A DNA stretch of 64,000 nt from an uncultured Thermoleophilia bacterium. GTDB taxonomy: Bacteria > Actinomycetota > Thermoleophilia > UBA2241. Position numbers and translations under genes: made by a program. Where the stretch lies: the NCBI GenBank assembly GCA_963709845.1, contig CAVPXV010000006.1, positions 229,837 through 293,836 on the forward strand, written 5' to 3'. Position 1 is the stretch's first letter, and the number at the start of each line of letters is the position of its first letter. Below the pieces are notes generated by a model. It was not told where the DNA came from. It worked only from the letters and a program-made list of their open reading frames with translations, and did no database searches. Positions 3,891 through 53,348 of this stretch are shown one piece after another.

Positions 3891-4373
3891 CTAGGCCGCC
3901 GGTCGCGTCAGTCCCAACCATCCGCCGCGGCGCCTGACGAGCACCAGCAGCGCCGCGCCGGCCGTGGCCATCACGGCCGCCTCGCCCGCGGCGACCCAGA
4001 CGGCGCTCGCCCAGAAGGGCAGGTCGAGCACCACGGCGAGCATCGCCGCCACGCCCAGGCCGTTGACCACGACGGGCACCACCAGCGCCGGCCAGCGCGG
4101 CCCGATGCGGTACATCATGGCGGCCGTCACGAGCGTGAGCAGCGACCCGAACACGATGTCCACGACGAACATCGGGCTGCCGAGATTGCCCATCGCCGTC
4201 CCCACCGTGAGGCCGACGACGGCCGCCGGGTCGACGCAGGCGAAGACGAGGAGCGCCTCCGCCAAGCGGAACTGGATCTGCCCGTAGGCCAGCGCGTTCA
4301 GGCCGGGCGCCAGGGTGAGCGCCGCATACAGCGCGGCGTACACCGCCGCGCGCGTCAGGTACCGGCTGCTCAC
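3891..4373 (-). CDS. queT: QueT-family (queuosine precursor) transporter-like membrane protein
   Basis: 160-aa, about 5 TM; AYGQIQFRLAEALLVF and DIVFGSLLTLVTAAMMY resemble QueT; start overlaps murI stop by 4 nt. Confidence 0.6.
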   Translation of the reverse strand: MSSRYLTRAAVYAALYAALTLAPGLNALAYGQIQFRLAEALLVFACVDPAAVVGLTVGTAMGNLGSPMFVVDIVFGSLLTLVTAAMMYRIGPRWPALVVPVVVNGLGVAAMLAVVLDLPFWASAVWVAAGEAAVMATAGAALLVLVRRRGGWLGLTRPAA

Positions 4374-5224
4374 GGGGCGACGAGAGCGTCCAGCGTCTCC
4401 AGCGACAGGGGACGCACGCGAGTGAGCGGCATCTGCAGGAAGCGGGCGCCGACGGCGCGGAAGGCCTCGGCGTCGCCCGTCGTATAGAAGCGATAGGACC
4501 CCACCCGGTCATCGGTGCGCGCCAGCCCCTGCCGGCGCAGCGTCTCCTCGACCTCGCGGGCGATCTCGGCCGCCGGGTTGACCAGGGTGACGTCCCGGCC
4601 GAAGAAGCGCTGCAGCATCGGCGCCACGAGCGGGTAGTGCGTGCAGCCCATGATCACCACGTCTGGGCGGCGCGCCTTCAGCGGCTCCGTGAACGCGCGC
4701 ACCGCGTCGGCGAGCTGCTGGCTGGCGACATCGCCTTCCTCGATGAACTGCACGAGACCAGGCGCCGCCTGCTGGATCACCTCGGCGCCCTCGTCGAGGC
4801 TCCTGATGGCGCGCGGATAGGCGCCGCTCGCCACGGTGGCCTCGGTGGCCAGCACGCCGATGCGCCGGTAGCGCGAGCTCTGCACGGCGGCCCGTGCCCC
4901 GGGCATGATCACGCCCACGATCGGCGTGGCGAAGCGCTCCTGGAGCAGCGGCAGAGCCGCCGACGTCGCCGAGTAGCAGGCCACGATGACCAGCTTGACC
5001 GGGACGGTCTCGAGGAACGCGGTGATCTGGCGGGCGTACAGCTCGAGCTCGGGAGCGGACTTCTCTCCGTAGGGGAATCGCGCCGTGTCGCCCACGTAGG
5101 CGAAGTTCTCGTTCGGCAGCCGGACCAGGCACTCGTGCAGCACGGTGAGCCCGCCCAGGCCTGAGTCGAACATGCCGATGGGCAGCGAGGCGGCGTCGTG
5201 GATGTCGGCGGAGGGATCGGTCAT
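4370..5224 (-). CDS. murI: glutamate racemase
   Basis: Frame of ORF 4370..5569; IGMFDSGLGGLTVLHE, VIVACYSATSAAL, MGCTHYPL motifs; start set to ATG 5224 (MTDPSADIHD...), upstream extension is junk. Confidence 0.9.
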   Translation of the reverse strand: MTDPSADIHDAASLPIGMFDSGLGGLTVLHECLVRLPNENFAYVGDTARFPYGEKSAPELELYARQITAFLETVPVKLVIVACYSATSAALPLLQERFATPIVGVIMPGARAAVQSSRYRRIGVLATEATVASGAYPRAIRSLDEGAEVIQQAAPGLVQFIEEGDVASQQLADAVRAFTEPLKARRPDVVIMGCTHYPLVAPMLQRFFGRDVTLVNPAAEIAREVEETLRRQGLARTDDRVGSYRFYTTGDAEAFRAVGARFLQMPLTRVRPLSLETLDALVAP

Positions 5225-5410
5225 GGGGGCCACGCGCCTGGTAGGCGCCTGAGTAGTATCCCCCACGCCCCGCGACAGTGTCCAGACGGGGCCCCCGCAG
5301 GGCCGCGTTGCCCGGACTGTCAACGGCATTCCGGCGCCCGCCGAGGGCGAGCGATAAAGCGCCGCGCACGCGGTTCCGATAGGGAGGGTGAGAGGAGGGG
5401 CCCCGAGCCA

Positions 5411-5891
5411 ATGGCCGGGGCGACGCGGATGGCCGATGACGAGAGGATCGAGCTCTTCATCTTCCCGGACGGGACTGCGGTCGAGATGATCGTGTTCGAG
5501 CACGCCGGCGCCCCCGTCGCCGAGCAGCTCGGCACCCCGGCGCCTCCCCGAGCGCGGCGCCGCCCCCACATGCGCGGCGCCGCCACCGCAGCTGGCCGGC
5601 GACGAGGCGCGCCAGTGCCCCGTGTGCGGCAGCCGCCTCGTCTACCCCGTCGACTGGGACCGCCGCGACCACGCCACGTGGATACTGAGCCTGCGCTGCC
5701 CGGAGTGCGAGACGCAGCGCCACGTGCTGCTGGACCGCGCCGGCGTCGAGGAGTTCAACCGGGAGCTTTACTTCGGGACCCAGGCCCTCGCGCGCGAGGC
5801 CGACCTCATGTCGCGGCGCAACTTCGAGGAAGAGGCGGCCAAGATCGTCGCCGCCCTCGGACGGGACCTCATCCTGCCGATGGACTTCTAG
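5411..5891 (+). pseudogene. small zinc-ribbon protein, frame-disrupted in this sequence
   Basis: N-terminus MAGATRMADDERIELFIFPDGTAVEMIVFEHAGAPVAEQLG in the frame of ORF 5198..5959. C-terminal part ...ARQCPVCGSRLVYPVDWDRRDHATWILSLRCPECETQRH... in the frame of ORF 5622..5891. The first Cys pair lies upstream of any ATG/GTG/TTG in its frame. Confidence 0.45.
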
Positions 5892-31509: not shown

Positions 31510-32508
31510 TCAAGCCGGGCCCTGGTTGACCATCGCCGAGGTCACGGGGAGCAGGCCGCAGCTGGCCACGATCTTCTGGTAGGCGCCCTCGTCGATCAGG
31601 TCCTGAAGCGCCTTCTGCACGGTATTGATGAGCTGGGTGTTCTTGGCCACGATGCCGATGCCGACGAGCTGCGGGTAATACCCGTTGGGCGCGCTCGGGT
31701 CGGCGACCACTTCGAACTAGTTGCCGTTGTTGGTGGTCTTGGCGATATACGAAGCCGTGGAGTGGTCGGTGAGGTCGCCCACGGCGCGGCCGCTCGTGAC
31801 CGCCAGCAGAGCGGCTGGCTGGTTCGGGAGCGCGAGGATCGTCATGGTCGGCTTGCCGGCGGCCTTGAAGGCGGTGTTCTGCTTCTGGAGGAACGCCTGC
31901 TGCGTCGTCCCGCTCTCGCAGGCCACGGTCTTCCCTTCCAGGCTGTCGAGATTCGTGATGCCCTGCGGGTTGCCCTTCTTGACGAGGACTGGAGGTCCCG
32001 TCGCTAGGCGTAGTCGACGAAGCTGACGCCCTGCTGCTCGCGCTCGCAGGTTGTCGTACATGTCCGACATGATCATGTCGTTCTTGCCGCCCTTGATCGA
32101 CAGGATGATGCTGTCGAACGGGGTCTCGTTGAACGACGTCGGGATGCCGATCTTCTTGCCGATCGCCTGCGACAGGTCGAAGTCGAAGCCGGCAGGGTTC
32201 TTGCTGGTCGCCGGATTGTAGTACTCCCAAGGCGGATAGGGGATGTCGCTCGCGACCTTGAGGTTGTTGGCGCTCGAGATACTGCTGGGCAGCATCGCCT
32301 TGAGCGCCGGGTCGGTCTGGAGCGCAGCCAGATCGGCCGCGGTCCACGCCGCGGCGCTAGCACTCGCGCTGGGACTCATGCTGGGTGTCGGGCTGCCGCT
32401 CGCCGTCGTAGTGCTGCTGCCGCAGCCCGCGGCGATGAGCGCCATGGCCAGGACCGCGAGCGCGACGAGCGCCACGGCCACAAGGCCCCATCTCCTGGTC
32501 GTTCTCAT
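31510..32508 (-). pseudogene. amino acid ABC transporter substrate-binding lipoprotein with in-frame TAG (31717-31719) and a compensated double frameshift (about 32005-32049)
   Basis: Lipobox LIAAGCGS. ORFs 31717..32508 and 31510..31710 are the same frame separated by one TAG (...AKTTNNGN*FEVVADPSAPNGYY...). DMYDN-LRARAAGRQLRRLRL-ATGPPVLVKKGNP reads EREQQGVSFVDYA in the +1 frame. Confidence 0.75.
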
Positions 32509-32639
32509 GCAAACCCCCTTGTCTGGCGACGCGCCCCCCGGCCCGCCGCTCCTTCACCGTCCGTACAGCTTAGCCTCCCGCGCGTGCCAAGAACAGTGTA
32601 CGGCCCTATTCGTAGCCAGCGCGGCTCCGCGCCCGCGCG

Positions 32640-37757: not shown

Positions 37758-38423
37758 CTAGGGTTTGAGGGGGCAGTCGCGCCAGGCGGGGGGCGAGAGG
37801 CTGTCGTCCTCGAGGAGGGCCAGGGCCGCCTCCAGCACCGCGCGTTGCGCGCGCGGCTCGTCCGGCGGCCCAAGCGCGTAGCCGTGGAGGAAGGGCGCCC
37901 ACAGTGTCCGCGGCGCCGGCTCCTCCCCGCCCGCGGTGTGCAGGAGCGACAGCGCGACAGTGGCAACGCCGCAGCGTTCAAGCTCACGCGCCACCAGCCC
38001 GACGGGCCGGCTGCACAGCGGTCAAGTGGGGATCAGCAGCGCGGCGTCGGCGCGGTCGGCGAGAAGCGTGACGGCCGCCGCGGCGGCGGCGCGCCCGACC
38101 GCGCGCCGGCTCGCCGCCATGGGCCCGCCGAGCCCAAGGTGCCGCGGCGCGAGCTCGCCCAGGCGCCCGTCGCCGACGGCGTCGCGCAGGCGGTCCAGGC
38201 CCATGGCAAGGTTGCGGTCGAGGTTGGCGGAGCCCGGGTCGGCCGCTCCCGCCGAGGGCCGCCAGAGCGACCTGGTGTCCACGTCGGCCGGCACCTGGCG
38301 CCACTCGGGCTTGCCTGTGGTCACCCCGGGCTGCCGGCCGCGGCCGCGCGTGAAGCAGACGGAGACCGCGATCAGCGCCAGACGCGACTCGGCGAGCGGC
38401 CGGCGCAGGCGCGACCACGGCAT
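37758..38423 (-). CDS. GrdB-like (glycine/sarcosine/betaine/D-proline reductase selenoprotein B family) protein with in-frame TGA at 38022-38024: candidate selenoprotein or nonsense pseudogene
   Basis: ORFs 38022..38450 and 37758..37994 are one frame split by a single TGA: ...DRADAALLIPT-TGA-PLCSRPVGLVARELERCGVATVALSLL...; ATG 38423 (alternative TTG 38450, overlapping the Fic stop). Confidence 0.55.
37995..38013 (-). promoter_or_regulatory. SECIS-like hairpin 8 nt 3' of the in-frame UGA
   Basis: mRNA UGA-CCGCUGUG-CAGCC-GGCCCGUCG-GGCUG: 5 GC-rich bp, 9-nt loop starting GG, loop begins 16 nt after the U of UGA (alternative fold 7 bp with one bulge). Confidence 0.3.
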
Positions 38424-38442
38424 GGGCTCGCGCCCGGTGCCG

Positions 38443-40470
38443 CTAGCCAAGGTCGCGCCGCCAGTCCCACTCGGGCGCGATGATCTGCGTGCCCTCGGTC
38501 TCTTCGACCTCGCGCCGCCAGGCCATGCGCTGGCCTACGCTGGCGCGCAGCCGCCAGCGCAGCGTCTTGCTCTCTTCGGCGATCGCCTCCTGCATGCCGG
38601 CGAGCCGACCATACGCGCGCGCCAGCTCCTCCTCGGAGAGCCCGTAGTCGTCCAGACGCGCGATGACCACGGCGAGGTTGTCGGAGATGTCGTGGTACAG
38701 GCCCCAGCTGCGCGAGCAGACGTCGGCCAGGTACGGCACGTCGATCGAGAGGTCGTCGTCGACTTCGCCCAGAGGTACATCCTTGACCAGGGCGATCACG
38801 TCGTGGACGTCCTTCTGGTTGATCTTGCCGATCTGCAACTTGGCGATGAGCGCGTCCACCGGCGAGATCGCGTACTCGTCGATGTCGAGCCGCCCGCGCA
38901 CGTCCACGTCGTGGTCCATACGCATGACGTCCATGAAGATGTCGAGGTGGTCGACGAGGGGCGGCTCGCGCCCGGCCTGGTCACCGCCGGCGTGAGCTTG
39001 CGCGGCGGCCTCCTCGAGCGCCTCCGTCTTGAGGTACTGCAGCTGCCCCGCGTCCGTCGATTGGGTGACGTAGCGGTTCTCCGTGTAGCCCTTGCCGACC
39101 AGTACCTCGTGCAGCTCGCGGCTCTGTGAGGAGAGGGCGACGAGATCGATGTCGGAGTACTCGCGGTCCATGAACGCGAGGTCGACGCAGTGCCGGCGGA
39201 CGGCGAGACCGCCGATGAGGCGCAGCTGCACGCCCTGCAGGCGCGCCGCGTCGATGATGTCCATGGCCTCCGCCATGAGGAGGTCGGCGCGCCGCGTGGG
39301 CGCCTCCCTCGCGCCCGCCCCCGACTTCACGGTGGCGCCCCGGGGCTCGGCGCCCGGCCCCCGCCGCAGTTCCTCGAGCGGGTGCATGACGGCGTCGAGC
39401 ACGTGGCGCGCCAGGTACACGCGCGGCCAGCGTTTCTCCGACCACTCCGCCAGCAGTCCGTTCGCCTCGAGCTCGCGCACGGCGCGGCGGGCGGTGGGGT
39501 TGGTGACACCGAGCACGCGCTGGGCCTCGGGCACCGTCATGCACGGCGTGCGGAAGAGCTCGTCGGCCAGGCGCAGCGCCTGGCCCTTGACCGTGGCGCG
39601 GTCGCGCGCGTAGTGGCTGATCAGCGCGCGCGCCTGGCGAGTGGCGCGGTCCGCCGTCTCGCGCACGCCGTTTGCGAAGAAGACGAGCCACGGCTCCCAC
39701 TCCCCTTGGGTCCGCGCGCGCTGCAGACGCAGGTAGTACTCGTCGCGGTGGCCCTCGAGGTAGGCCGACAGGTAGAGCAAGGGCCGCGCGAGCCGCCGGC
39801 GTTCGATGAGGAACAGCGTGATGAGCAGGCGGCCGAGACGGCCGTTGCCGCCCACAAACGGGTGGATGGCCTCGAACTGGGCGTGCAGGACGGCGCACTG
39901 CACGAGGTCGGGCAAATCGCCGCGGTGCTGCAGGAACCGTTCCCAATCGGCCAGCGCCTCGTGCATCTGCGGCACCGGCGGAGGCACGTAGGTGGCCGTC
40001 GCCAAGGTGGCCCCGGGCGTACCCATCCAGTTCTGGCCGGTGCGGAACTCGCCGGGTGTGCGCGCGCTCCCGAGCTCGCCGCGAAGCAGGCGCTCGTGCA
40101 GGGCGCGCACGAAGTCGAGTGAGAGCTGCTCCTCGCGCAGCCGCTCCACGCCGAAGCGCAGGGTGGCGATGCAGCTGCGTACCTCGCGCAGATGATCGCG
40201 CGGCACGGTGAGCCTGGCGGCCGCGACCTGGTCGAGGAGAAGGTCTGAGAGGCTGACCTCGGCGCCCTCGATGCGCGACGAGCAGAGCGCCTCCTGGCGC
40301 TTGAACGGCGCGTCCAGCAGGTCAGGGTCGGGCAGCTGGCCGTCGACGCCGCTGAGCTCGCCGAGGGCGGCGTCGGCGCGGGACAGGGCCAGCACGAGCT
40401 CGGGAGTGTACGAAAGCCTGGGCGGCAGCGGCGCCGGAACGAAGGCCGCGTAGCCGCCGGGCGTCTCCAC
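38443..40470 (-). CDS. Fic/DOC-family protein (N-terminal inhibitory helix, Fic core, winged-helix) fused to a C-terminal nucleotidyltransferase-like module
   Basis: 675-aa uninterrupted ORF; AFVPAPLPPRL Fic_N-type start, SSRIEG inhibitory motif, Fic motif HPFVGGNGRLGR, wHTH VLGVTNPTARRAVRELEANGLL, then LIGGLAVRRH...SDIDLV...HLDIF module. Confidence 0.8.
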   Translation of the reverse strand: METPGGYAAFVPAPLPPRLSYTPELVLALSRADAALGELSGVDGQLPDPDLLDAPFKRQEALCSSRIEGAEVSLSDLLLDQVAAARLTVPRDHLREVRSCIATLRFGVERLREEQLSLDFVRALHERLLRGELGSARTPGEFRTGQNWMGTPGATLATATYVPPPVPQMHEALADWERFLQHRGDLPDLVQCAVLHAQFEAIHPFVGGNGRLGRLLITLFLIERRRLARPLLYLSAYLEGHRDEYYLRLQRARTQGEWEPWLVFFANGVRETADRATRQARALISHYARDRATVKGQALRLADELFRTPCMTVPEAQRVLGVTNPTARRAVRELEANGLLAEWSEKRWPRVYLARHVLDAVMHPLEELRRGPGAEPRGATVKSGAGAREAPTRRADLLMAEAMDIIDAARLQGVQLRLIGGLAVRRHCVDLAFMDREYSDIDLVALSSQSRELHEVLVGKGYTENRYVTQSTDAGQLQYLKTEALEEAAAQAHAGGDQAGREPPLVDHLDIFMDVMRMDHDVDVRGRLDIDEYAISPVDALIAKLQIGKINQKDVHDVIALVKDVPLGEVDDDLSIDVPYLADVCSRSWGLYHDISDNLAVVIARLDDYGLSEEELARAYGRLAGMQEAIAEESKTLRWRLRASVGQRMAWRREVEETEGTQIIAPEWDWRRDLG

Positions 40471-52317: not shown

Positions 52318-52374
52318 CCTACCAGCCCGCGACGAGCCCTCGACCGCGGACCGGAGGCGGGTCCGGCGCGGCGC

Positions 52375-53348
52375 TCAGGGGTCGCGGCGCGGGCGGCGGG
52401 CCTGCACGTAGCTCACGAGCAGCTCGTCGCGGAGGGCGGTCAGCTCCTCGGTACGACCGGCCAGCCTTCTCCGCTTCGAGCCCCTCGGCGAGGAGGTCGG
52501 ACGTCGCCGCCGGGAACTCGGTCCACGCGGCCAGGTCGCGCAGCATCCCCTCCTTGACGGCGGACAGGTGCTCGAGGTGACCGCGGATGCCATGCGCGCC
52601 TCCGCCCAGGTCGTAGAGCAGGTGGGGTCCCATCGCCGCCCAGCGCAGACCTGGGCCGAAGCTGACGGCGCGGTCGACGTCGTCGACAGTGGCGATGCCC
52701 CGCGCGACCAGGTCGACCGCCTCCCGCCACAGGGCGGCCGAGAGGCGATTGGCGATGTATCCGGGCAGGTCGCGAGTGAGCAGCACCGGCTCCTTGCCGA
52801 CGGCGATGTAGAAGGCGCGCGCGCGCCGCATCGCCTCCGGCGCGGTGAGCTCACCGGGGGCGAGCTCCACGAGGGGCACCAGGTGCGGCGGGTTGTACGG
52901 GTGCGCGGCGAGGCAGCGCTGCGGCCGCCGCGCCGCCGTCTGGATGTCGCTGATGGAGAGGCCCGAGGAGCTCGTGCAGATGAGCGCCTCGGGCGGCACG
53001 GCGGCGTCGACGGCGGCGAAGACCTCCCGCTTGAGCGCCAGATCCTCGCGGACGCACTCCTGGACGTGGCACGCACCGGAGAGCGCCTCCTCCAGGTCGG
53101 CCGTGGCCCGAAGCAGGGCGATGCCCCTCTCGGCGGCGCCGGTCTCCGCCAGGCCGTGCGCCGCCAGGAAGCGCGCCGCCGCCGCGGCGCCGTCCCTGGC
53201 CGCCGGTCAGGCGGCCCTCGTCGACGTCGTGGATGCGCACTTCGAGGCCGGCGGCGGCGAAGAGCCCCGCCCAGCTGCCGCCGGTAAGACCGGCCCCGAC
53301 GACCGCCACCGGACCGTCCGGAGGCCACGCTCGCCGAGACTCCTCCAT
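52375..53348 (-). pseudogene. 3-hydroxyacyl-CoA dehydrogenase family (L-carnitine/L-gulonate 3-dehydrogenase-like), two frame breaks (about 53205 and 52455)
   Basis: MEESRRAWPPDGPVAVVGAGLTGGSWAGLFAAAGLEVRIHDVDEG (ORF 52851..53606). Middle ...ALKREVFAAVDAAVPPEALICTSSSGLSISD...HPYNPPHLVPLVEL... (frame of ORF 52319..52999). Tail TEELTALRDELLVSYVQ in ORF 52375..53376. Confidence 0.75.

What the first reader, a model, noticed from the sequence alone, without database searches (positions are those of the whole stretch)
37758..38423. In-frame TGA at the U/CxxC position of a GrdB-like protein followed by a SECIS-like hairpin: candidate selenoprotein
ORFs 38022..38450 and 37758..37994 are the same reading frame, interrupted only by TGA 38022-38024. 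The joined product reads ...NLDRNLAMGLDRLRDAVGDGRLGELAPRH...LLADRADAALLIPT-[TGA]-PLCSRPVGLVARELERCGVATVALSLL...PRTLWAPFLHGYALGPPDEPRAQRAVLEAAL. From memory, short glycine/sarcosine/betaine/D-proline reductase selenoprotein B-like proteins (GRDB, PF07355) place the redox U/C-x-x-C motif in exactly this context: hydrophobic-P-x-U/C-P-x-C, then ARxLExxGIxTV. The mRNA 3' of the UGA folds as UGA-CCGCUGUG-CAGCC-GGCCCGUCG-GGCUG. The stem is GC-rich, the loop starts with GG, and the loop begins 16 nt after the UGA, which fits published bacterial SECIS geometry. The alternative is a TGC/TGT to TGA nonsense mutation. That is plausible here because the window has many other lesions.
Basis: partly seen in the sequence, partly recalled or inferred. 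Interest (0 to 1): 0.7.

Follow-up and report, generated by a model that had tools for sequence, protein, structure and literature searches.

The report
PrdB-like selenoprotein gene with SECIS
The in-frame TGA is almost certainly a selenocysteine codon in an intact, unannotated gene of the known PrdB/GrdB-like redox-protein family, not a mutation, so this is a real but ordinary selenoprotein gene.

Summary
On the minus strand, one 221-codon frame (ATG 38423 to TAG 37758) is interrupted only by TGA 38024-38022.

The product is a remote but significant homolog of D-proline reductase PrdB (NCBIfam TIGR04483, E = 6e-18). The Pfam GRDB model ends at the residue just before the TGA.

About 30 distinct homologous genes were examined. 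They come from Thermoleophilia/Actinomycetota MAGs and metagenomes, plus one Gemmatimonadota genome. All carry TGA at this codon and continue in frame for 80-88 conserved codons (dN/dS 0.29). Cys-containing homologs have NCP[IV]C where this protein has T-U-P-L-C.

A hairpin with an 8-bp stem and a GUC loop starts its loop 18 nt after the UGA. It meets every published bacterial SECIS constraint in 28 of 28 sequences and shows compensatory changes.

A nonsense mutation, a split gene and a sequencing error are effectively excluded. Two things remain untested: the Sec machinery (selA/B/C/D), which is absent from this 64-kb window, and actual selenium incorporation.

The gene is not a D-proline or glycine reductase subunit: no PrdA or Grd partners were found and the scores fall far below the equivalog cut-offs. 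It is a new member of a known selenoprotein family, of modest interest.

The parts
38025..38423 (-). First part of the coding sequence, codons 1-133 (MPWSRL...ALLIPT). It holds the N-terminal region with the conserved ANLDRNLA, LDRLR and G.MAA motifs. An alternative TTG start lies at 38450.
   Evidence: It is homologous to the N-terminal fragments P0002-P0060 and to TIGR04483 PrdB model positions 20-143. dN/dS is 0.38.
38022..38024 (-). In-frame UGA, the proposed selenocysteine codon (residue U134).
   Evidence: TGA sits at the same codon in all of about 30 distinct homologous genes. It aligns with the first Cys of NCP[IV]CHQ in Cys homologs. The Pfam GRDB model ends at residue 133.
38013..38024 (-). 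The U-P-L-C redox motif (UxxC), made of the Sec codon plus Pro, Leu and Cys137.
   Evidence: alignment. Leu and Cys are kept through synonymous changes (CTC 12, CTG 11, TTG 2; TGC 24, TGT 2). In the AlphaFold model of Cys homolog P0044, the equivalent Cys167 lies in the loop after a strand and Cys170 in the first turn of a helix.
37761..38021 (-). Second part of the coding sequence, codons 135-221 (PLCSRPVGLVARELERCGVATV...CPLKP).
   Evidence: The in-frame continuation is conserved in all homologs. dN/dS is 0.29. It matches TIGR04483 model positions 151-220.
37758..37760 (-). True stop codon, TAG.
37985..38020 (-). SECIS-like hairpin inside the coding sequence. The upper stem is 38011-38004 paired with 38000-37993 (8 bp). 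The apical loop is GUC at 38003-38001, starting 18 nt after the UGA. The lower stem pairs 38016-38013 with 37991-37988 and 38020-38018 with 37987-37985.
   Evidence: Minimum-energy fold. RNAalifold consensus. 97% of cells paired and 2 compensated pairs in 28 sequences. Core energy is -13.4 kcal/mol, and all published bSECIS constraints are met (constraints from PMC13188914).
38443..40470 (-). Context only: the upstream gene on the same strand. It encodes a 675-aa protein with Fic_N and Fic domains and a C-terminal nucleotidyltransferase-like domain, and ends 19 nt before the ATG.
   Evidence: Pfam. The same adjacency occurs in the closest relatives, L001, L002, L015-L017, L026 and L034. Co-transcription is inferred, not shown.

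Best explanation
This is an intact gene for a 221-residue selenoprotein of the PrdB/GrdB-like family. UGA 38024-38022 is read as selenocysteine (U134).

How recoding would work (inferred): while the ribosome approaches the UGA, the mRNA just downstream folds into a hairpin (38020-37985). Its small apical loop (G-U-C) sits 18 nt after the UGA, which is the geometry that the elongation factor SelB carrying Sec-tRNA(Sec) recognises in bacteria. Sec is then inserted instead of terminating, and translation runs on to TAG 37758.

How the protein would work (inferred): Sec134 and Cys137 form a UxxC redox pair placed just after a beta-strand and at the start of an alpha-helix. This is the arrangement used by thiol/selenol oxidoreductases, with a selenenyl-sulfide formed and then re-reduced. 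In PrdB and GrdB the equivalent Sec attacks the substrate bound by a pyruvoyl partner subunit. No such partner is encoded nearby. The protein therefore most likely acts as a stand-alone selenol/thiol reductase with an unknown substrate.

Shown here: the frame, the conservation of the UGA, the Sec/Cys alignment, purifying selection downstream, the conserved hairpin, and the family relationship.

Inferred: actual Sec insertion, SelB binding and the redox chemistry.
For: (1) One frame is interrupted only by TGA, and it is the only such case in the window.

(2) Family. TIGR04483 PrdB scores E = 6.4e-18 over model positions 20-220 of 238. GrdB-type models score 1e-7 to 1e-9. Pfam GRDB ends (347/347) at residue 133, directly before the TGA. 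The N- and C-terminal fragments map to PrdB model positions 20-143 and 151-220, which puts U at about 148 and Cys137 at 151.

(3) In the protein database nearly all relatives are 134-176 aa and end in ...ALLVP[TVA], meaning gene callers truncated them at the same codon. Among the best 150 representative clusters, at least 105 end exactly there and only 7-9 are Cys forms.

(4) DNA of about 30 distinct homologs has TGA at that codon in every case. These share 45-66% identity in the N-terminal part and sit in different gene neighbourhoods. Each continues in frame as PLCS[RQ][PS]VGLVA.ELER.G[VI][AS]TV... for 80-88 codons. A Gemmatimonadota homolog at 38% identity does the same.

(5) dN/dS is 0.29 downstream of the TGA and 0.38 upstream. 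The six codons after the TGA are kept at the amino-acid level through synonymous changes.

(6) Full-length Cys homologs align C-P-[IV]-C with U-P-L-C.

(7) The hairpin has an 8-bp stem and a loop of GUC, GUG or CGUG, with core energies of -8.8 to -13.4 kcal/mol. It meets the published bSECIS constraints in 28 of 28 sequences (constraints from PMC13188914). It is 97% paired, with compensated pairs C-G to U-A and C-G to U-A. The Gemmatimonadota hairpin ACCAGAC-CGUGA-GUCUGGU sits at the same place.

(8) 'Proline reductase PrdB, pfam07355, UxxC' is an established and abundant environmental selenoprotein family (PMC2398784; PMC1088965). Actinobacteria are a selenoprotein-rich phylum (PMC1794560).
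Against: No selA, selB, selD or tRNA-Sec occurs in the 64-kb window or in the fetched loci. That is expected for a small slice of a genome, but it leaves the essential machinery untested.

The hairpin alone is not statistically exceptional in 71% G+C DNA. Its z-score is -1.4, and 2.6% of random positions do as well.

Its conservation partly reflects the conserved amino-acid sequence it encodes. In 6 of 28 sequences one stem pair is C.C, and an alternative register with a bulged U must be invoked.

The window does carry at least one probable true nonsense lesion elsewhere, TAG 31719 inside a solute-binding protein gene. Lesions do therefore occur in this sequence.

Scores lie below the curated cut-offs of every Grd/Prd model.
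Confidence: 0.88

Rival explanations
1. Pseudogene: a TGC/TGT (Cys) codon mutated to TGA in this genome, so the protein is truncated and non-functional.
For: The window has at least one probable genuine in-frame nonsense lesion, TAG 31719 in an SBP_bac_3 gene. Sec machinery is not seen in the window.
Against: TGA is present at the identical codon in all of about 30 distinct homologs, at 38-66% identity, from different genomes and neighbourhoods. None of them has TGC or TGT. The 87 codons after the TGA are intact, conserved and under purifying selection, with dN/dS of 0.275 for the window against the others.
Confidence: 0.02
2. Split gene: translation really stops at the UGA, and the C-terminal 80-odd residues are made separately from an internal GTG start. 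This is how the gene callers annotated it (134-176 aa plus 81 aa ORFs), and the two polypeptides would then associate.
For: Gene callers predict an 80-81 aa ORF starting at a GTG 18 nt after the TGA in the relatives.
Against: The six codons between the TGA and that GTG encode an invariant P-L-C-S-[RQ]-[PS], maintained through synonymous substitutions. They are therefore translated in this frame. They also contain the second Cys of the redox motif. In the window that Val codon is GTC, not a start codon, so the restart site is not conserved. All Cys homologs are single polypeptides.
Confidence: 0.03
3. UGA read-through without selenocysteine: a near-cognate tRNA such as Cys or Trp, or some other recoding mechanism, inserts a standard amino acid at the UGA. 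The hairpin would act only as a read-through stimulator.
For: Sec machinery was not demonstrated for this organism. The codon context is UGA-C in all homologs. From general knowledge, not tested here, that is a comparatively leaky context.
Against: The codon lies at the catalytic U/C position of a family in which Sec is biochemically established in PrdB and GrdB (reviewed in PMC13188914). The hairpin fits the SelB-type bSECIS model in loop size, G-U loop content and spacing. Strict maintenance of UGA in about 30 lineages rather than TGC is the pattern expected when Sec, not Cys, is the selected residue.
Confidence: 0.05
4. Sequencing or assembly error created the TGA.
For: Related genomes are long-read MAGs, and the window may come from a similar source. 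That origin is inferred.
Against: The same TGA appears in independent assemblies from JGI, ENA, NCBI and Logan.
Confidence: 0.01

Closest known systems
D-proline reductase selenoprotein PrdB (NCBIfam TIGR04483; Clostridium sticklandii / Clostridioides difficile type)
   Same: Size is similar (221 aa against a 238-position model). Homology is colinear over almost the whole length, model positions 20-220, with E = 6e-18. A UxxC Sec motif sits at the corresponding position. Sec is encoded by UGA with a hairpin immediately downstream.
   Different: The score is 65 bits against an equivalog cut-off of 300. No prdA (the pyruvoyl proprotein), prdC or other prd genes were found among the roughly 41 ORFs of the window that were scanned. 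The host is a high-G+C Actinomycetota/Thermoleophilia-type organism rather than a Stickland-fermenting clostridium. The substrate is therefore probably not D-proline.
Selenoprotein B of glycine/sarcosine/betaine reductase (GrdB/GrdF/GrdH; Pfam PF07355 GRDB, TIGR01917/TIGR01918)
   Same: It is homologous to the region around the Sec site, model positions about 264-421 of 431. The Pfam GRDB model ends exactly at the residue before the TGA.
   Different: Those proteins are about 430 aa, while this one has only the part equivalent to their C-terminal 160 residues. Scores of 30-35 bits lie far below cut-offs of 65-800. No grdA, grdC, grdD, grdE or thioredoxin-system genes are nearby.
'Proline reductase PrdB' (pfam07355, UxxC) selenoprotein family of environmental selenoproteomes (Sargasso Sea, GOS; also Anaeromyxobacter and Geobacter)
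   Same: The Pfam assignment is the same, the redox motif is UxxC, Sec forms are abundant alongside Cys forms, and the family occurs in organisms that are not Stickland fermenters (PMC1088965; PMC2398784; PMC1794560). This is the category the gene belongs to.
   Different: The sequences from those studies were not available for direct comparison. The present subfamily comes from soil and peat Thermoleophilia/Actinomycetota and has its own conserved features: the SSVC and ANLDRNLA motifs, and T-U-P-L-C-S.
Cys-containing PrdB-like proteins of Proteobacteria and others (for example P0044; P0121 'glycine reductase [Azoarcus indigens]'; more than 5000 clusters)
   Same: They align over the full length at 28-34% identity, with the CP[IV]C motif aligned to UPLC. 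They are stand-alone genes without prdA.
   Different: They carry Cys instead of Sec and are 290-320 aa, with extra N- and C-terminal segments. The PDB holds no structural relative of the AlphaFold model; the best Foldseek E-value is 0.1.
Escherichia coli fdhF-type bacterial SECIS
   Same: The hairpin lies in the coding sequence directly after the UGA. The apical loop is small and carries G-U. Counting the U of UGA as 1, the loop G and U are at positions 22-23. From memory, the E. coli element has G23/U24. It satisfies the published consensus constraints.
   Different: There is no sequence similarity and no Rfam family match. The loop is only 3 nt (4 nt with a bulged U in one subgroup). SelB binding has not been tested.

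Membership tests
Bacterial selenoprotein gene (Sec-UGA recoding) | An in-frame UGA inside one continuous coding frame that stays conserved and under selection on both sides. | tested here: met
   dN/dS is 0.38 upstream and 0.29 downstream.
Bacterial selenoprotein gene (Sec-UGA recoding) | The UGA aligns with Cys in homologs (a Sec/Cys pair), and with UGA in orthologs. | tested here: met
   Alignment A4 places U opposite the first Cys of NCP[IV]CHQ. TGA is present in about 30 of 30 homologous genes. At least 105 of 150 representative clusters are truncated at this site.
Bacterial selenoprotein gene (Sec-UGA recoding) | A bSECIS hairpin with a 3-9 nt apical loop, a 4-16 bp upper stem, G in the first two loop positions, 16-37 nt between the UGA and the loop, and energy of -7.5 kcal/mol or lower (PMC13188914). 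| tested here: met
   The loop is GUC, the stem is 8 bp, the spacing is 18 nt and the energy is -13.4 kcal/mol. The constraints are met in 28 of 28 homologs. By chance, 16.7% of positions meet the minimal constraints and 2.6% are equally stable.
Bacterial selenoprotein gene (Sec-UGA recoding) | The genome encodes selA, selB, selD and tRNA-Sec (selC). | not testable with these tools
   Only 64 kb is available. None was found in the window or in the fetched loci (ARAGORN; Rfam; tblastn with E. coli SelA/B/D). The source contig could not be looked up.
Bacterial selenoprotein gene (Sec-UGA recoding) | Selenium is actually incorporated at the UGA position. | not testable with these tools
   This needs 75Se labelling or mass spectrometry.
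GrdB/PrdB superfamily (Pfam PF07355 GRDB; TIGR01918 'various_sel_PB') | A score at or above the curated family cut-off. | tested here: not met
   PF07355 scores 11.5 bits against 22. TIGR01918 scores 31.7 against 65.45. Homology is nevertheless significant by E-value: TIGR04483 at 6.4e-18 and TIGR01917 at 7.5e-9. Many subfamily members carry a precomputed PF07355 hit.
GrdB/PrdB superfamily (Pfam PF07355 GRDB; TIGR01918 'various_sel_PB') | A Sec/Cys-x-x-Cys redox motif at the conserved site after the hydrophobic strand. | tested here: met
   The sequence reads LLIPT-U-PLC. The GRDB model ends at residue 133. See also the alignment and the position in the AlphaFold model of a Cys homolog.
D-proline reductase PrdB (TIGR04483 equivalog) | An equivalog score of 300 bits or more. 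| tested here: not met
   The score is 65.1 bits.
D-proline reductase PrdB (TIGR04483 equivalog) | Encoded together with prdA (the pyruvoyl proprotein) and other prd genes. | tested here: not met
   Its neighbours are a Fic/nucleotidyltransferase gene, a metallo-beta-lactamase-fold gene, DUF6855 and EamA. No Prd or Grd component occurs among the roughly 41 window ORFs scanned, nor in relatives' neighbourhoods. A few low-GC3 stretches of the window were not scanned.
Glycine/sarcosine/betaine reductase protein B (GrdB/GrdF/GrdH) | A protein of about 430 aa that reaches the equivalog cut-offs (602-800 bits). | tested here: not met
   The protein is 221 aa. It matches only model positions about 264-421, with 30-35 bits.
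Glycine/sarcosine/betaine reductase protein B (GrdB/GrdF/GrdH) | A grdA/grdE/grdC/grdD and thioredoxin-system gene cluster. | tested here: not met
   None was found in the window survey.

The most novel reading that the evidence does not exclude
The gene may represent a lineage-specific subfamily of short PrdB-like proteins that always uses Sec, found in soil and peat Thermoleophilia/Actinomycetota. No Cys form appeared among about 30 sequences. In current databases it is split everywhere into two 'hypothetical' ORFs. It would work without any PrdA/Grd partner, as a stand-alone selenol/thiol reductase with a new substrate. It might be functionally tied to the Fic/nucleotidyltransferase gene that sits directly upstream in the closest relatives, and whose nucleotidyltransferase-like domain recurs within 2-6 kb in more distant ones. 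It would also document Sec decoding in Thermoleophilia; two full-text paper searches here turned up no report of that.
Probability: 0.35. Interest if true: 0.45.

Novelty: new member of a known kind. Interest (0 to 1): 0.3.

Why it matters
For annotation, two 'hypothetical protein' calls (142 aa and 78 aa) should be merged into one selenoprotein gene with transl_except Sec. The same error affects essentially every database relative: at least 105 of the 150 nearest representative clusters are truncated at the Sec codon.

For biology, the gene implies that this Thermoleophilia-type actinobacterium and its soil and peat relatives decode UGA as Sec. It adds a strictly Sec-retaining branch to the PrdB-like UxxC family, whose function outside Stickland fermenters is still unknown.

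No new mechanism is revealed, and the family and the recoding system are textbook. The value lies mainly in correct annotation and in marking the selenium-utilisation trait in an under-studied class.

Tried and rejected
1. It is paired in only 82% of cells, and one pair is broken in 23 of 28 sequences, against 97% for the 8-bp register.

2. Rfam found nothing at the site. The gathering search of the whole window returned only tRNA-Arg. The permissive search of 37850-38150 returned only a chance miRNA hit at E = 1.9.

3. Sec machinery was not found in the window or loci. ARAGORN found no tRNA-Sec. tblastn with E. coli SelA, SelB and SelD, taken from NC_000913.3, gave nothing. This is uninformative about the rest of the genome.

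4. The window's own ORF product P0001 could not be traced to its source contig; it is 'not on record'. The single genome-contig scan returned relatives but not the source genome.

5. The PDB gave no hits by sequence or by profile. Foldseek of the P0044 model against the PDB gave nothing better than E = 0.1. No solved structure informs the fold.

A Cys homolog was modelled instead.

7. Overlapping same-strand ORF pairs elsewhere in the window were checked as possible frameshift lesions. Most are simply adjacent genes.

8. A functional link to the GGDEF genes that flank some homologs was considered. It is not conserved and was dropped.
Full report
**Observation.** On the minus strand, the frame that starts at ATG 38423 runs for 221 codons to TAG 37760-37758. 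An alternative TTG start lies at 38450, overlapping the end of the upstream gene. The frame contains a single stop, TGA at 38024-38022. The window has about 71% G+C. Both halves show the very high third-position G+C of real genes here, 0.95 and 0.87. A scan of all six frames for coding-like segments separated by one stop found only four cases. Two are ordinary adjacent genes, one is a probable nonsense lesion at TAG 31719 (see 'Noticed in passing'), and the fourth is this TGA.

**Family.** With Cys placed at the TGA position, the joined protein matches NCBIfam TIGR04483 (D-proline reductase PrdB) at E = 6.4e-18. The match covers model positions 20-220 of 238. It matches the GrdB/GrdF/GrdH models more weakly, at 1e-7 to 1e-9 over their positions about 264-421.
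- Pfam GRDB (PF07355) matches only weakly, but the match stops at the last model position (347/347) at residue 133, the residue before the TGA.
- Scanned separately, the two halves map to PrdB model positions 20-143 and 151-220. This puts the TGA at about position 148 and Cys137 at 151.
- All scores are below the curated cut-offs: 65 against 300, 31.7 against 65.45, and 11.5 against 22.
- The protein is therefore a peripheral relative, not an equivalog of any characterised reductase subunit.

**Evidence from protein databases.** A search of the 5.8-billion-protein collection returned 64 relatives.
- Almost all are 134-176 aa, cover only the first 60% of the query, and end in ...ALLVP[T/V/A]. 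Gene callers stopped them at the same codon.
- A minority of 293-315 aa cover the whole query and read ...LLVPN-C-P-[IV]-C-HQ... at that place.
- These Cys forms belong to a very large group of more than 5000 clusters. Sources name them 'D-proline reductase (dithiol) PrdB' or 'glycine/sarcosine/betaine reductase selenoprotein B family protein'.
- An exhaustive HMMER search of 1.84 billion representatives with the N-terminal fragment found 168 relatives. Of the best 150, at least 105 end exactly at the ...LLVPx site and only 7-9 carry an internal C-x-x-C.

**Evidence from DNA of homologs.** I fetched the DNA for relatives in three ways: exact-protein look-ups, a scan of one genome per species and a scan of metagenome contigs.
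- The genome scan returned 9 loci, all Thermoleophilia or Actinomycetota MAGs. The metagenome scan returned 29 loci.
- After removing duplicates there are about 30 distinct genes, with 45-66% amino-acid identity to the window in the N-terminal part.
- Every one has TGA at the homologous codon. Every one continues in the same frame as P-L-C-S-[R/Q]-[P/S]-V-G-L-V-A-x-E-L-E-R-x-G-[V/I]-[A/S]-T-V... for 80-88 codons before a true stop.
- A Gemmatimonadota homolog at 38% identity shows the same pattern: LLVPV-TGA-PMCNQTVSLVAAELERQGITTV.
- Pairwise Nei-Gojobori estimates give a median dN/dS of 0.29 for the 72 codons after the TGA and 0.38 for the 66 codons before it.
- The six codons just after the TGA are conserved as amino acids through synonymous changes: Leu as CTC 12, CTG 11 and TTG 2, and Cys as TGC 24 and TGT 2.

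These facts exclude a nonsense mutation private to this genome and a sequencing error. They also argue strongly against the 'two separate ORFs' annotation. In addition, the GTG that gene callers used as the restart codon in relatives is GTC in the window.

**Hairpin.** RNAfold places a hairpin directly after the UGA.
- The upper stem is 8 bp: GCCGGCCC (38011-38004) paired with GGGCUGGU (38000-37993). The apical loop is GUC (38003-38001).
- A 1x1 internal loop separates it from a 4-bp helix, and a bulged U separates that from a 3-bp helix. These lower helices reach back to 38020 and forward to 37985.
- RNAalifold on 12 sequences gives the same upper stem. It still holds when pairs are counted across 28 sequences.
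- With that structure, 97.1% of cells are paired, against 17-52% when the partner strand is slid by 1-3 columns.
- Two pairs carry changes on both sides. Pro/Ser first base against Gly third base switches between C-G and U-A, and one other pair changes from C-G to U-A.
- Ser-type sequences (UCC) use the Gly codon GGA (or GGG), which restores pairing and is otherwise an unusual choice in high-G+C genes (with the last point from general knowledge). Six Pro-type sequences have a C.C mismatch there. They fold in an alternative register, GGCC-CGUG-GGCC with a bulged U.

The published bacterial SECIS model requires a 3-9 nt loop, a 4-16 bp upper stem, G in the first two loop positions (usually followed by G or U), 16-37 nt between the UGA and the loop, and an energy of -7.5 kcal/mol or lower (PMC13188914). 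All 28 sequences comply. Their loops are GUC, GUG, GUA or CGUG, the spacing is 17-18 nt, and core energies run from -8.8 to -13.4 kcal/mol.

The hairpin by itself is weak evidence in this base composition. Its z-score is -1.4. Of arbitrary positions in the window, 16.7% meet the minimal model and 2.6% have an equally stable perfect hairpin. Its value lies in its conservation at a fixed distance from a conserved UGA, including in a different phylum where several stem positions have changed in a compensated way.

**Protein mechanism (inferred).** The window protein itself could not be modelled because the tool refuses the U-to-C substitution. A Cys homolog, P0044 (32% identical over the full length), was modelled instead.
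- The model is confident, with mean pLDDT 90.8 and pTM 0.90.
- The first Cys (C167, equivalent to U134) lies in the short loop after beta-strand 160-164. The second (C170, equivalent to C137) lies in the first turn of helix 168-183. This is the usual setting of a redox-active CxxC/UxxC pair.
- Neither sequence or profile searches nor Foldseek (best E = 0.1) find a solved relative.
- By analogy with PrdB and GrdB, whose chemistry is reviewed in PMC13188914, Sec would act as the nucleophile and Cys137 would resolve the intermediate into a selenenyl-sulfide.

**Gene context.**
- The upstream gene on the same strand, 19 nt away, encodes a 675-aa protein. It has Fic_N and Fic domains and a C-terminal part weakly like nucleotidyltransferase NTP_transf_5.
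- The downstream gene on the same strand encodes a metallo-beta-lactamase-fold protein. DUF6855, EamA and nitroreductase genes follow.
- A Pfam survey of about 41 ORFs across the window found no PrdA or GrdE-type proprotein, no GrdA, GrdC or GrdD, no thioredoxin system next to the gene, and no SelA, SelB or SelD.
- tblastn with E. coli SelA, SelB and SelD found nothing in the window or loci. The only tRNA in the window is tRNA-Arg.
- The Fic adjacency is shared by the closest relatives. More distant ones are flanked by GGDEF genes instead.
- No conserved operon partner therefore defines a function.

**Comparison with what is known.** 'Proline reductase PrdB' (pfam07355, UxxC) was already among the most abundant selenoprotein families in the Sargasso Sea (42 genes) and GOS (235 Sec and 110 Cys forms) selenoproteomes. 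It is also listed for non-Stickland bacteria such as Anaeromyxobacter and Geobacter (PMC1088965; PMC2398784; PMC1794560). Actinobacteria are one of three selenoprotein-rich phyla, and Rubrobacter xylanophilus has five selenoproteins. Two full-text searches found no paper that deals with selenoproteins in Thermoleophilia or Conexibacter. The gene is therefore a new member of a known selenoprotein family, carried by an under-studied class.

**Verdict.** I put the probability of a genuine Sec-encoding gene at 0.88. What remains open is the presence of selABCD/selC in the genome and direct proof of selenium insertion. Interest is modest (0.3). The result corrects a systematic annotation error and flags the Sec trait in this lineage, but it reveals no new kind of system.

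Noticed in passing
window 31515-32553 (- strand), TAG at 31719-31717: A solute-binding protein gene (Pfam SBP_bac_3) seems to be interrupted by an in-frame TAG...YIAKTTNNGN*FEVVADPSAPNGYYPQLVGIGIVAKNTQL... The family-typical sequence continues for 68 more codons with high GC3. The stretch DNLRARAAGRQLRRLRLATGPP upstream also looks atypical for the family.
   Followed up: partly
window 38443-40470 (- strand); loci L006, L008, L010, L011, L014, L020, L024, L029, L043: The gene upstream of the selenoprotein gene fuses Fic_N and Fic domains to a C-terminal domain of about 280 aa that is weakly like nucleotidyltransferase NTP_transf_5 (E = 0.001). Homologs of that C-terminal domain alone (36-58% identity) lie within about 2-6 kb of the PrdB-like gene in many more distant loci, on either strand. 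This could be retained synteny or a functional link.
   Followed up: partly
window 52322-53206 (- strand): In the 3-hydroxyacyl-CoA dehydrogenase ORF, the 3HCDH_N match starts at model position 45 at residue 10 of the open frame. The N-terminal NAD-binding part seems to be missing or in another frame.
   Followed up: no
window 4373-5641 (- strand): In the Asp/Glu racemase ORF, the Pfam match covers only model positions 50-210 and begins at residue 193 of a 423-codon open frame. This suggests either an unusual N-terminal extension or a frameshift in the 5' part.
   Followed up: no
protein databases (P0002-P0060, P0182-P0328): The family is systematically mis-annotated. At least 105 of the 150 nearest representative clusters are fragments ending exactly at the Sec codon, and the C-terminal 80-88 aa are called as separate small ORFs. 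P0061 and P0064 are post-Sec fragments of longer relatives that carry an extra C-terminal domain of about 170 aa.
   Followed up: partly
window residue 13 of the selenoprotein (codon at about 38387-38385): A Cys that is at least 90% conserved in the Thermoleophilia subfamily (..PLAECRL..) is Ser in the window copy (..PLAESRL..). The invariant Cys of the SSVC motif is kept. The significance is unknown.
   Followed up: no
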